NCBI RefSeq assembly: GCF_003334255.1
Contig: NZ_QOWU01000046.1
Reading direction: 5' to 3' (one strand)
Length of the DNA: 43,525 nt
DNA from: Escherichia coli
GTDB lineage: Bacteria > Pseudomonadota > Gammaproteobacteria > Enterobacterales > Enterobacteriaceae
In this document: positions 24,867-26,398 of the stretch, piece after piece
How positions within the stretch are numbered: position 1 is the first letter of the stretch
How the letters are laid out: each line of letters begins with the position of its first letter
Made by a program: the position numbers and the translations under genes
The notes under the pieces: generated by a model
The model's input: only the letters and a program-made list of their open reading frames with translations
What the model was told of the DNA's origin: nothing
Databases searched by the model: none

Positions 24867-24876
24867 GATATGGGGT

Positions 24877-25101
24877 TTGGTCATTGTTAATGAGCATGAC
24901 AATCATGACCGCCAACGACTGGATTCTTCCTTGGTTTATATTGGTGCGCATAATGTATATTATGTTAAATCATGTCTGAGTGATGCGAAGTGCTTTTCTG
25001 GTAGTCGTTATTCGTTCAGGGTTCAAGAACTTAAGCCTCTCCTCTTTCATAATTGGCCTGTGCATGGAGAAATAGCCTGGTTATTCCCTGCCCCATGCTA
25101 A
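24877..25101 (+). pseudogene. Possible AraC-family regulator remnant (yneL-like) in the fimbrial deletion scar
   Basis: 74-aa ORF with only weak resemblance to an AraC C-terminal HTH (..CFSGSRYSFRVQELK..); no clear RBS; the sequence TTCCCTGCCCC near its 3' end recurs in the ydeO terminator. Low confidence. Confidence 0.25.
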
Positions 25102-25183
25102 GAGCGCAGTGTCTGTCGCATAGACACTGCATACGAAAACACCAGAGGGTGCTGTTACTTATTTAAGGACGGATCAAGCGGGA

Positions 25184-26398
25184 ATGAGTCCACTCCGGTA
25201 TCAGAAATGGCAAGGTTTTTATAACTTATCCGACAGTGCCTACAGTCGAATGAGTGGTTACACCGTCAAGCCTCCTACCGGAGACACCAATGAGCAGACA
25301 CAATTTATTGATTATTTTAATCTGTTCTACAGTAAGCGTGGTCAGGAACAAATAAGCATCTCTCAGCAGCTTGGAAATTACGGTACGACATTTTTCAGTG
25401 CCAGTCGCCAAAGTTACTGGAACACGTCACGCAGCGACCAGCAAATATCATTTGGATTAAATGTGCCGTTTGGTGATATTACGACTTCGCTGAATTACAG
25501 CTATTCCAATAATATATGGCAAAACGATCGGGATCATTTACTCGCTTTTACGCTTAATGTTCCCTTCAGTCATTGGATGCGTACAGACAGTCTGTCGGCA
25601 TTTCGTAATTCAAACGCCAGTTACAGTATGTCAAACGATTTGAAAGGCGGCATGACCAATCTATCGGGGGTTTATGGCACTCTGCTGCCGGATAATAACC
25701 TGAATTATAGCGTTCAGGTCGGTAACACCCACGGAGGTAATACATCGTCTGGCACCAGTGGTTACAGTTCTCTTAATTATCGTGGAGCTTATGGTAATAC
25801 TAATGTCGGTTACAGTCGGAGTGGTGACAGCAGCCAGATTTATTACGGAATGAGTGGTGGGATTATTGCTCATGCTGATGGCATCACCTTTGGACAGCCG
25901 CTGGGCGACACAATGGTTCTGGTTAAGGCTCCTGGTGCTGATAATGTCAAAATAGAGAACCAGACCGGAATTCATACCGACTGGCGTGGCTATGCCATAT
26001 TACCATTTGCGACAGAATATAGAGAAAACCGTGTTGCTCTTAACGCGAATTCCCTTGCAGATAATGTTGAACTGGATGAAACCGTGGTCACTGTCATCCC
26101 AACTCACGGTGCTATTGCCAGAGCAACATTTAATGCACAAATCGGCGGGAAAGTATTAATGACGTTGAAGTACGGTAATAAGAGCGTTCCATTCGGTGCA
26201 ATTGTCACACACGGAGAGAATAAAAATGGCAGCATTGTCGCGGAAAATGGTCAGGTTTATCTGACTGGACTTCCACAGTCAGGGCAATTACAGGTTTCAT
26301 GGGGCAAAGATAAAAACTCAAACTGTATTGTCGAGTACAAGCTTCCTGAAGTTTCTCCTGGTACCTTACTGAACCAGCAGACAGCAATCTGTCGCTAA
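25184..26398 (+). pseudogene. ydeT: Fimbrial usher, C-terminal fragment (truncated F9-type operon)
   Basis: 404-aa ORF homologous only to the C-terminal half of FimD-type ushers (full ushers are ~850 aa); no signal peptide and no N-terminal plug or barrel start; no chaperone or major subunit gene upstream. Confidence 0.75.

What the first reader, a model, noticed from the sequence alone, without database searches (positions are those of the whole stretch)
24867..26398. F9-type fimbrial operon is a deletion remnant: usher lacks its N-terminal half, no chaperone or major pilin, AraC-like fragment in the scar
The usher ORF begins abruptly at MSPLRYQKWQ with no signal peptide and encodes only a C-terminal region, yet the downstream minor subunits and FimH-like adhesin (ydeS, ydeR, ydeQ) are intact. 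The 317-bp gap after hipA carries a weak AraC-like ORF (24877-25101) and a perfect hairpin (25106-25130). The remnant cannot assemble pili by itself, so the retained adhesin genes are either decaying or served by another usher system.
Basis: partly seen in the sequence, partly recalled or inferred. Interest (0 to 1): 0.4.

Follow-up and report, generated by a model that had tools for sequence, protein, structure and literature searches.

The report
Decayed F9 fimbrial operon beside dif
This is the well-known broken F9 (yde) fimbrial operon of K-12-like E. coli, here in a rare form that has lost 468 more bases including its promoter, and the "scar" beside it holds the chromosome's dif site, not an AraC-like gene.

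Summary
The core observation holds. The 404-aa ORF (25184-26398) is only the C-terminal 45% of the F9 usher: residues 489-883 of 883, equal to mature FimD 438-833. It has no signal peptide. No chaperone, major subunit or usher N-terminus occurs anywhere in the window, while ydeS, ydeR and ydeQ are full length.

This is the annotated hipBA / dif / yneL' / ydeT' / ydeSRQ / ydeP locus of phylogroup-A E. coli. [quoted passage not shown]

Three corrections:
- **The AraC-like ORF is not AraC-like.** ORF 24877-25101 lies over the exact 28-bp dif site (24943-24970), and all 8 KOPS motifs in the window point at that site.
- **The real AraC remnant is 11 codons.** It lies at 25178-25210 (yneL') and supplies the ATG and first 9 codons of the "usher" ORF, which is therefore an in-frame yneL'::'ydeT chimera.
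- **This is not the canonical K-12 allele.** It lacks a further 468 bp, including the mapped f9 promoter. This junction is absent from 5,426 complete genomes but present on 11 independent assembly contigs.

An unexplained detail: its left breakpoint and the following 10-mer match a different rare allele (PEC145 type).

The locus is ordinary and low in interest.

The parts
23544..24866 (+). hipA (440 aa). hipB lies at 23278-23544. This is the left-hand neighbour of the locus.
   Evidence: ORF list. It is collinear with annotated hipB/hipA in L001, L005 and L006. Pfam Couple_hipA and HipA_C are recorded on identical contigs.
24877..25101 (+). It is a chance ORF spanning dif and is not AraC-related.
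   Evidence: No Pfam match and no NCBIfam match. tblastn with AraC_N+HTH homologs P0122, P0125, P0130 and P0152 gives only E >= 0.1 here.
24943..24970 (+). dif, the 28-bp XerC/XerD chromosome-dimer resolution site: GGTGCGCATAA-TGTATA-TTATGTTAAAT.
   Evidence: Exact 28/28 match, with 0 expected by chance. The sequence is the one given as the experimentally confirmed E. coli dif in PMC3025954. dif is reported in the yneL-hipA intergenic region (bioRxiv 10.1101/2025.09.02.673814). It is present at the same relative place in all 10 loci held at the time.
25086..25093 (-). First KOPS (GGGNAGGG) to the right of dif. It is one of 8 in the window, all oriented toward dif.
   Evidence: Three lie on the + strand left of dif (9993, 21175, 21955). 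Five lie on the - strand right of dif (25086, 27832, 32386, 36142, 37266).
25106..25130 (.). Inverted repeat / hairpin of unknown function. It is not terminator-like.
   Evidence: Fold -20.7 kcal/mol, z = -3.1. No T-tract and no terminator call. No Rfam family. It is conserved in the K-12-type, PEC145 and PEC1011 loci, but lies in a ~110-bp stretch that is replaced by unrelated sequence in the O157-type locus.
25178..25210 (+). yneL' : the last remnant (11 codons, AGMSPLRYQKW) of a decayed AraC-family regulator gene.
   Evidence: This is the only significant tblastn match of AraC_N+HTH_18 homologs in 24700-25300 (E 4e-6 to 1e-4 for P0013, P0122, P0125, P0130 and P0053; 0.024 for P0152). PGAP annotates the longer K-12 version as a frameshifted helix-turn-helix/AraC pseudogene.
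25210..25211 (.). Deletion junction (allele J2) with 2-bp GC microhomology. Relative to the intact operon of PEC1011, 3,747 bp are missing (L006 9346-13092). Relative to K-12, a further 468 bp are missing (L001 4813-5280).
   Evidence: Pairwise BLAST and breakpoint print-outs.
25184..26398 (+). Chimeric ORF: 9 codons of yneL' fused in frame to usher residues 489-883 ('ydeT).
   Evidence: The exact protein is encoded on 5 independent contigs. The variant with ancestral Q137 is on 6 more.
26412..26942 (+). ydeS, a FimF-like minor subunit. It is intact and carries a lineage-specific S30N change at 26500.
   Evidence: NCBIfam FimF 238.8 bits against a cut-off of 200. SNP shown.
26955..27458 (+). 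ydeR, a FimG-like minor subunit, intact.
   Evidence: NCBIfam FimG 256 bits against a cut-off of 220.
27517..28431 (+). ydeQ, the FimH-like two-domain tip adhesin of F9 fimbriae, intact.
   Evidence: ORF of 304 aa. Pfam FimH_man-bind is recorded on the identical gene. It is annotated ydeQ in all relatives.
28765..31044 (+). ydeP, the conserved right-hand neighbour of the f9 operon.
   Evidence: PMC3966885 states that f9 is flanked 3' by ydeP and 5' by hipBA.

Best explanation
The region is the replication-terminus neighbourhood of a phylogroup-A (K-12-like) E. coli. The order is hipBA, then dif 77 bp after hipA, then a remnant of the F9 (f9/fml/yde) chaperone-usher fimbrial operon.

**What is missing.** Relative to an intact locus (hipBA - dif - yneL' - f9 promoter - major subunit - chaperone - usher - ydeS - ydeR - ydeQ - ydeP), 3,747 bp are gone. 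The lost material is most of the already-dead AraC-family gene yneL, the mapped f9 promoter and 5' UTR, the major subunit gene, the chaperone gene and usher codons 1-488.

**What the junction does.** It joins yneL' codon 9 in frame to usher codon 489. The apparent usher gene therefore starts with a borrowed ATG and encodes a protein with no signal peptide. It lacks the N-terminal domain, the plug and roughly the first half of the barrel, so it cannot insert into the outer membrane or act as an usher.

**Consequence (inferred).** There is no chaperone to fold the subunits, no major subunit and no native promoter. YdeS, YdeR and YdeQ are therefore orphan genes that have not yet accumulated disabling mutations, and the locus is non-functional for pilus assembly.

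**How the allele relates to K-12.** It equals the common K-12 ydeT' allele minus a further 468 bp. It sits on a K-12-type backbone as a rare clonal lineage.

**Shown:** anatomy, breakpoints, loss of the promoter, dif, natural occurrence of the allele.
**Inferred:** lack of function and the order of deletion events.
For: - **Usher fragment.** Pfam Usher positions 267-549 plus PapC_C; FimD 438-833 of 833; F9 usher 489-883, 393/395 identical to an intact usher.
- **Nothing else of the operon remains.** No other F9 major subunit, chaperone or usher homology in the window.
- **Intact reference and breakpoints.**
- **K-12-type allele.** It carries 468 extra bp at this point. About 1,325 of 5,426 complete genomes hold both halves of the junction probe close enough to be joined. 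All 25 listed, MG1655 among them, have the halves 468 bp apart.
- **Rarity of the window junction.** The 44-mer is absent from all 5,426 complete genomes and from metagenome contigs.
- **It is nonetheless natural.** It is encoded on 5 + 6 independent contigs.
- **Backbone.** 99.97-99.98% identical to K-12-type carriers over most of the window, against about 1-1.9% divergence, block by block, from the closest intact-operon haplotype tested.
- **Promoter.** The f9 promoter and TSS mapped in PMC3966885 are present in the K-12-type, F11 and PEC1011 loci but absent from the window.
- **dif and KOPS.**
Against: - Non-function is inferred from missing parts, not measured.
- YdeS and YdeR in K-12-type strains are identical (same protein accessions) to those of an intact-operon strain. 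Retention by selection cannot be told apart from recency.
- YdeS and YdeR meet the FimF and FimG family cut-offs, and the usher fragment is about 60% identical to FimD by eye in the printed alignment. Cross-assembly by the type 1 machinery is therefore conceivable.
- The route to this allele is not settled (see rivals).
Confidence: 0.9

Rival explanations
1. Origin route A: the window junction (J2) arose directly in a K-12-type genome. A single secondary 468-bp deletion with 2-bp (GC) microhomology removed the rest of yneL, the f9 promoter and the first 38 bp of ydeT'.
For: - All J2 carriers examined have the K-12-type haplotype on both flanks.
- The earliest J2 haplotype (L027) shows no donor-like SNPs over 9.2 kb.
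- The backbone is 99.97-99.98% identical to K-12-type carriers over most of the window.
- The same lineage carries another private microhomology deletion: 86 bp in yneE between 5-bp repeats.
Against: J2 shares its exact left breakpoint with the unrelated allele J1 (PEC145 type), and the 10 bases after it (GCAAGGTTTT) are also the same. That 10-mer occurs twice in the intact operon, at L006 10726 and 13093, which are the two right breakpoints. For two independent, random deletions I estimate this coincidence at roughly 1e-5 or less. No sequence feature that would direct it was found.
Confidence: 0.45
2. Origin route B: J2 descends from J1. J1 is a 1,380-bp deletion from yneL' codon 9 to the major-subunit/chaperone intergenic region. 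A second 2,367-bp deletion between the two 10-bp direct repeats GCAAGGTTTT then produced J2. The allele reached, or was formed within, a K-12-type backbone by homologous recombination with crossovers close to the junction.
For: - It explains the shared left breakpoint and shared 10-mer with no coincidence.
- J1 is more diverse than J2, so plausibly older. It occurs in 2 complete genomes plus 12 contigs on at least 3 flank haplotypes. One (L017) has a K-12-like usher 3' haplotype and two (L018, L020) carry the K-12-like base at 24941.
- Flanks at this locus are visibly mosaic. PEC1011 differs from K-12 by 2.7% left of dif but only about 0.1% in the first 3.6 kb to its right.
Against: - No intermediate (J1 on a K-12-type backbone) was found.
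- It requires recombination crossovers within about 270 bp on the left and about 0.6-1 kb on the right, leaving no donor SNP.
- J2 with a PEC145-like usher haplotype is not on record.
Confidence: 0.45
3. The missing 468 bp is an assembly or sequencing artefact of this one record.
For: The junction is absent from all 5,426 complete RefSeq E. coli genomes.
Against: Eleven contigs from separate sequencing runs encode the same junction: 5 with the exact protein and 6 with the ancestral residue at position 137. Five were checked at the DNA level. L008 and L009 are identical to the window, and L025-L027 run collinear across the junction. The carriers form a nested SNP series.
Confidence: 0.01
4. The retained ydeS-ydeR-ydeQ genes are functional. 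Their products are folded and assembled by a paralogous chaperone-usher pair (for example FimC/FimD), which would give hybrid tips with F9 receptor specificity.
For: - All three genes are intact.
- YdeS and YdeR exceed the curated FimF and FimG cut-offs.
- YdeS and YdeR are unchanged between remnant and intact strains.
Against: - The native promoter is deleted in this allele.
- No paper found in these searches reports such cross-assembly.
- Many independent lesions at the locus argue for relaxed selection: BL21 with internal stops in the chaperone and usher genes and a frameshift in the usher, strain 4238, O157 Z866 with total loss, and IS insertions.
- Two of the SNPs that arose after the junction are non-synonymous changes in the remnant.
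Confidence: 0.07

Closest known systems
E. coli K-12 yneL'-ydeT'-ydeS-ydeR-ydeQ (disrupted F9/Fml fimbrial operon of phylogroup A; Wurpel et al. 2014, PMC3966885)
   Same: - Same chromosomal place, between hipBA/dif and ydeP.
- Same loss of the major subunit, the chaperone and the usher N-terminal half.
- Same intact ydeS, ydeR and ydeQ.
- Flanks 99.9-100% identical.
   Different: - The window lacks a further 468 bp (L001 4813-5280): the 3' part of yneL', the mapped f9 promoter/TSS, 72 nt of 5' UTR and the first 38 bp of the K-12 usher fragment.
- The usher fragment starts at residue 489 instead of 476.
- It is fused in frame to the yneL' start codon.
Intact F9 (Fml) operon, e.g. strains PEC1011, A15, F11; CFT073 c1931-c1936
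   Same: The retained part (usher 489-883, ydeS, ydeR, ydeQ) is 96.8-99.6% identical at the DNA level. The order and neighbours are the same.
   Different: The promoter, major subunit, chaperone and usher residues 1-488 are absent from the window.
PEC145/PEC411-type f9 allele (J1)
   Same: The left breakpoint is identical to the base, and the 10 bases following it are identical.
   Different: J1 keeps the chaperone and a full-length usher and lacks only yneL' 3', the promoter and the major subunit. It sits on different flank haplotypes.
E. coli dif / XerCD / FtsK-KOPS system
   Same: Exact 28-bp dif, with complete KOPS polarity converging on it.
   Different: Nothing differs.

Membership tests
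Chaperone-usher fimbrial operon (F9/Fml, type-1-like) | Major structural subunit gene | tested here: not met
   tblastn with the F9 major subunit of PEC1011 finds nothing in the window at E <= 1e-3. The gene lies inside the deleted interval L006 9346-13092.
Chaperone-usher fimbrial operon (F9/Fml, type-1-like) | Periplasmic PapD-like chaperone gene | tested here: not met
   No tblastn match in the window. The gene lies inside the deleted interval.
Chaperone-usher fimbrial operon (F9/Fml, type-1-like) | Full-length usher with signal peptide, N-terminal domain, plug, complete barrel and C-terminal domains | tested here: not met
   Only residues 489-883 of 883 remain, equal to FimD 438-833 of 833. 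There is no PapC_N match and no hydrophobic N-terminus.
Chaperone-usher fimbrial operon (F9/Fml, type-1-like) | Minor/adaptor subunits and a two-domain tip adhesin | tested here: met
   ydeS passes FimF and ydeR passes FimG above the curated cut-offs. ydeQ has the FimH_man-bind domain.
Chaperone-usher fimbrial operon (F9/Fml, type-1-like) | Native f9 promoter (-35 TAGTCG/A, 18 bp, -10 CATAAT; TSS 251 nt upstream of the major subunit ATG) | tested here: not met
   The motif is present in L001, L003, L005 and L006 but absent from the window.
AraC/XylS transcriptional regulators | C-terminal double helix-turn-helix DNA-binding domain (Pfam HTH_18 / HTH_AraC) in ORF 24877-25101 | tested here: not met
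   No Pfam or NCBIfam match. tblastn with family members is at chance level there.
AraC/XylS transcriptional regulators | Any recognisable remnant of the family in 24867-25211 | tested here: met
   The 11 codons AGMSPLRYQKW at 25178-25210 match the inter-helix region of AraC_N+HTH_18 relatives (E 4e-6 to 1e-4 for five homologs, 0.024 for P0152). They continue in K-12 as the frameshifted yneL pseudogene. This is a remnant only, not a gene.
dif (XerC/XerD chromosome dimer resolution site) | 28-bp site with XerC arm, 6-bp central region and XerD arm identical to the experimentally defined E. coli dif | tested here: met
   28/28 at 24943-24970. The reference sequence is in PMC3025954.
dif (XerC/XerD chromosome dimer resolution site) | Convergence of KOPS (GGGNAGGG) polarity at the site | tested here: met
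   8 of 8 motifs point toward 24943-24970.
dif (XerC/XerD chromosome dimer resolution site) | GC-skew switch at the site | tested here: inconclusive
   Cumulative skew peaks broadly at about 28-32 kb. A 43-kb window dominated by gene-orientation effects is too short to decide.
Intrinsic (Rho-independent) terminator | GC-rich hairpin followed by a T-tract (for the hairpin at 25106-25130) | tested here: not met
   The stem is stable, but no T-run follows and the scan calls no terminator.

The most novel reading that the evidence does not exclude
The roughly 430-bp interval between dif and the f9 promoter may be a deletion hotspot specific to the terminus region. At least six independent deletions start there. 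Two of them (J1 and J2) reuse the same left breakpoint to the base and end at the two copies of one 10-mer. If J1 and J2 are truly independent, this would point to a sequence-directed illegitimate-recombination process operating next to dif, for example repair of breaks made during chromosome-dimer processing. Loss of F9 fimbriae in many E. coli lineages would then be a by-product of the operon's position rather than of selection.
Probability: 0.1. Interest if true: 0.45.

Novelty: already known. Interest (0 to 1): 0.15.

Why it matters
It matters little biologically. The locus is a textbook case of reductive decay of a cryptic fimbrial operon.

The practical value is in annotation. The 404-aa ORF should be labelled a chimeric pseudogene (yneL'::'ydeT), and the space after hipA should be labelled dif rather than a regulator fragment.

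There is also a caution for work that uses K-12 as a proxy. This lineage has additionally lost the f9 promoter, so any residual ydeSRQ expression seen in K-12 need not apply here.

The recurrent lesions right beside dif, and the breakpoint shared by two alleles, are a small lead on how the terminus region loses DNA.

Tried and rejected
- **RNA families.** Rfam scan of 23000-29000 found no family. The hairpin is not a known RNA or a terminator.
- **74-aa ORF.** Pfam and NCBIfam found nothing. The AraC reading of that ORF is rejected.
- **First helix-turn-helix of the AraC gene.** I looked for a degraded copy in 25067-25177. In K-12-type genomes this ~110 bp is unrelated to the O157-type sequence, which still encodes it. 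It is also not visibly its reverse complement, by eye only. Its origin is unresolved.
- **Window junction in metagenome contigs.** Searched twice, no hits.
- **Independent full-length deletion from an intact ancestor.** Tested using a composite query and strain A15. Intact-operon strains with a K-12-like hipA haplotype exist, but the closest one tested is about 1-1.9% divergent, block by block, against 0.02% for K-12-type carriers. Rejected as the simple route.
- **Cluster of window-private SNPs near the junction as a sign of an imported patch** (23101, 25593, 26500). Other J2 carriers show that these arose stepwise after the junction. Rejected as evidence.
- **Extended or imperfect homology, or dif-like half-sites, at the shared breakpoint.** None seen by inspection.
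- **J2 on a PEC145-like usher haplotype.** Not on record.
- **Service failures.** All three were repeated successfully.
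Full report
**What is at the coordinates**

hipA ends at 24866. A 404-aa ORF runs from 25184 to 26398, followed by three fimbrial genes (26412-26942, 26955-27458, 27517-28431) and ydeP.

- The 404-aa product matches the Pfam Usher model only from position 267 to 549 of 549, plus PapC_C.
- Residues 9-404 align with mature FimD residues 438-833 of 833.
- The same residues align with residues 489-883 of the 883-aa F9 usher of strain PEC1011, with 393 of 395 identical.
- The first 40 residues contain no hydrophobic stretch, unlike the intact usher.
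- tblastn with the F9 major subunit, chaperone and complete usher finds nothing else in the 43.5-kb window.
- YdeS and YdeR score above the curated NCBIfam cut-offs for FimF and FimG. YdeQ carries the FimH lectin domain.

**What the locus is**

A search of 5,426 complete E. coli genomes shows this to be the annotated hipB-hipA / helix-turn-helix pseudogene (yneL in K-12) / ydeT pseudogene / ydeS / ydeR / ydeQ / ydeP locus.

Intact versions carry the order hipBA, AraC-family pseudogene remnant, major subunit, chaperone, 883-aa usher, ydeS, ydeR, ydeQ, ydeP. Examples are PEC1011, A15 and F11.

Wurpel et al. 2014 (PMC3966885) already reported several of these points:
- f9 is flanked by hipBA and ydeP.
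[quoted passage not shown] The deletion-remnant reading is therefore established knowledge.

**This is not the canonical K-12 allele**

Coordinates below are those of the intact locus L006.

| Allele | Deleted interval | Size |
|---|---|---|
| K-12 type | 9776-13054 | 3,279 bp |
| Window (J2) | 9346-13092 | 3,747 bp |

The window equals the K-12 allele minus a further 468 bp (L001 4813-5280), with a 2-bp GC microhomology at 25210/25211.

About 1,325 complete genomes hold both halves of a 121-bp probe across the junction close enough to be joined. In all 25 listed, including MG1655, C600, J53 and ATCC 8739, the halves lie 468 bp apart. None of the 5,426 genomes has the window's junction 44-mer.

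The allele is nevertheless natural:
- The exact 404-aa protein is encoded on 5 contigs from independent sequencing runs. The two fetched are identical to the window.
- The same protein with the ancestral Gln at position 137 is on 6 more contigs.
- These carriers form a nested SNP series on a K-12-type haplotype.

An assembly artefact is excluded.

**What the extra 468 bp contained**

The f9 transcription start was mapped in CFT073 to a G 251 nt upstream of the major subunit ATG. It is preceded by -35 TAGTCG, an 18-bp spacer and -10 CATAAT, and is bound by H-NS (PMC3966885).

That motif is present in the K-12-type loci (L001 5134-5163, L005), in F11 and in PEC1011. It is absent from the window. 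K-12 therefore keeps the native promoter in front of its usher fragment, and this lineage has lost it.

**The start of the "usher" ORF**

In K-12 the frame beginning ATG AGT CCA CTC CGG TAT CAG AAA TGG continues as LRLNEVRRQMLNEHYDVTTAAYAVGYES... This is the second helix-turn-helix of an AraC-family protein, broken by a frameshift.

Homologs confirm this.

In the window the deletion joins codon 9 of this frame to usher codon 489 in frame. MSPLRYQKW is therefore regulator-derived, and the ORF is a chimera.

Comparable natural chimeras exist in other E. coli: yneL'::major subunit (P0149, P0153, P0164) and yneL'::chaperone (P0163).

**The "AraC-like ORF" and the gap**

ORF 24877-25101 has no Pfam or NCBIfam match. 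tblastn with four AraC_N+HTH relatives gives only chance-level alignments in it. Their single significant match in 24700-25300 is AGMSPLRYQKW at 25178-25210.

What the ORF actually overlies is dif. Positions 24943-24970 are an exact 28/28 match to GGTGCGCATAATGTATATTATGTTAAAT. This is the experimentally confirmed E. coli site (PMC3025954), reported to lie in the yneL-hipA intergenic region (bioRxiv 10.1101/2025.09.02.673814).

All eight KOPS motifs in the window point at it: three on the + strand to its left and five on the - strand to its right. GC skew over 43 kb is not decisive.

The hairpin at 25106-25130 is real and conserved in K-12-type, PEC145 and PEC1011 loci. It has no T-tract and no Rfam match. 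Its role is unknown.

**Why the locus is so variable**

The operon begins within about 0.3-0.9 kb of dif. In the loci I fetched there are at least six different deletions. Their left ends fall between L006 9345 and 9775.

| Allele | Deleted interval(s) in L006 |
|---|---|
| K-12 type | 9776-13054 |
| Window (J2) | 9346-13092 |
| PEC145 (J1) | 9346-10725 |
| BL21 | 9486-10148 |
| Strain 4238 | 9606-10372 and 10416-12199 |
| O157:H7 Z866 | 9470-17657 |

There are also insertions of IS1, IS2, IS3 and ISKpn21 between dif and f9, and a filamentous prophage abutting dif in F11.

This is consistent with relaxed selection on a cryptic, H-NS-silenced operon, in a region where elements that exploit Xer integrate. 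Whether terminus-specific breakage contributes is speculation.

**An unexplained detail**

PEC145 and PEC411 (2 complete genomes; also 12 contigs) carry a different deletion, J1. Its left breakpoint is identical to the window's, and its right side begins with the same 10 bases, GCAAGGTTTT. That 10-mer occurs twice in the intact operon, at L006 10726 and 13093, which are exactly the two right breakpoints.

Slippage between these repeats in a J1 genome would give the window's junction exactly. Two observations pull in opposite directions:
- Every J2 carrier has K-12-type flanks. The earliest J2 haplotype shows no foreign SNP over 9.2 kb. This fits a direct 468-bp deletion in a K-12-type genome.
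- J1 occurs on at least three flank haplotypes, including one with a K-12-like usher 3' end. Recombinational transfer is therefore plausible.

I could not decide between the two routes and give them equal weight.

**Function**

With the chaperone, major subunit, usher N-terminal half and promoter all gone, the remnant cannot build a pilus. This is an inference from the established requirements of the chaperone-usher pathway.

YdeS and YdeR in K-12-type strains have the same protein accessions as in an intact-operon strain. The remnant genes are undamaged. That is as expected for a recent loss, and does not by itself show selection.

After the junction formed, this lineage acquired Q137L in the usher fragment. 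None of about 4,590 genomes with this segment has that base. It also acquired S30N in YdeS. Both changes are non-synonymous, but the numbers are too small to test.

Service by FimC/FimD is possible in principle and untested.

**Verdict**

This is an ordinary, already described decayed operon. The specific allele is a rare strain-level variant. The gap is misread in the finding, and its notable content is dif.

Noticed in passing
window 24943-24970 (and KOPS at 9993, 21175, 21955 on +; 25086, 27832, 32386, 36142, 37266 on -): The window spans the chromosome's dif site. The match is an exact 28-mer and all 8 KOPS motifs converge on it. The window therefore covers the replication terminus / dimer-resolution point.
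   Followed up: yes
window 6905-6909 (deletion point); relatives L005 7341-7426: The window lacks 86 bp inside yneE (a bestrophin-family gene). The deletion lies between 5-bp TTTTC direct repeats. It is out of frame, so yneE is a pseudogene here. The 86 bp are present in all four relatives compared (2-331, EC06, BUCT2930, A15).
   Followed up: partly
window 1-77: The window begins with what appears to be the end of an IS1 element: bases 1-77 match the DNA immediately following the annotated IS1B transposase gene in strain 2-331 (L005 11403-11479). It sits next to ptrR where relatives have yneK. Strain BUCT2930 has an IS1B at a truncated yneK in the same place.
   Followed up: partly
window 17635-23055: The 1,806-aa ECSE_1600-family autotransporter is intact here. 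It is an incomplete, frameshifted pseudogene in the K-12-like O16:H48 genome examined (L001), and is frameshifted in EC06 and O157 Z866.
   Followed up: no
L003 1-2841 (UPEC F11): Filamentous-phage genes (a zonular occludens toxin family protein and a secretin annotated as type II secretion system protein GspD) lie about 140 bp upstream of dif, and hipBA is absent from that side. This looks like an element integrated at dif by Xer recombination.
   Followed up: partly
window 23200-24941 versus 24971-28500, compared with L006 (PEC1011): There is a sharp haplotype break at dif. K-12-type and PEC1011 differ at about 44 sites (2.7%) in the 2 kb left of dif. The last difference is at 24941, 2 bp before dif. 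They differ at only 3 sites in 3.6 kb to its right.
   Followed up: partly
L004 6021-6031 and L006 10726-10735 / 13093-13102; window 25210-25219: The rare PEC145-type allele and the window allele share the same left breakpoint. Each ends at one of the two copies of the 10-mer GCAAGGTTTT. This is either descent by repeat slippage or an unexplained recurrent breakpoint.
   Followed up: partly
window 25067-25177 versus L002 8674-8797: A stretch of about 110 bp containing the hairpin is unrelated to the corresponding 124 bp of the O157-type locus. The O157-type stretch still encodes part of the first helix-turn-helix of the AraC-family gene. The origin of the K-12-type stretch is unknown.
   Followed up: no
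L014 26476-27704; L015 17383-19447; L007 2935-3632; L013 2733-3946: Four different insertion sequences (IS2, ISKpn21 with a DUF6904 gene, IS1A, IS3) sit between dif and the f9 remnant in different strains.
   Followed up: no
window 23101, 25593, 26500: Three of the five SNPs private to this lineage, relative to its three closest complete genomes, lie within 3.4 kb around the junction. Other carriers of the junction show that they arose stepwise after it.
   Followed up: yes
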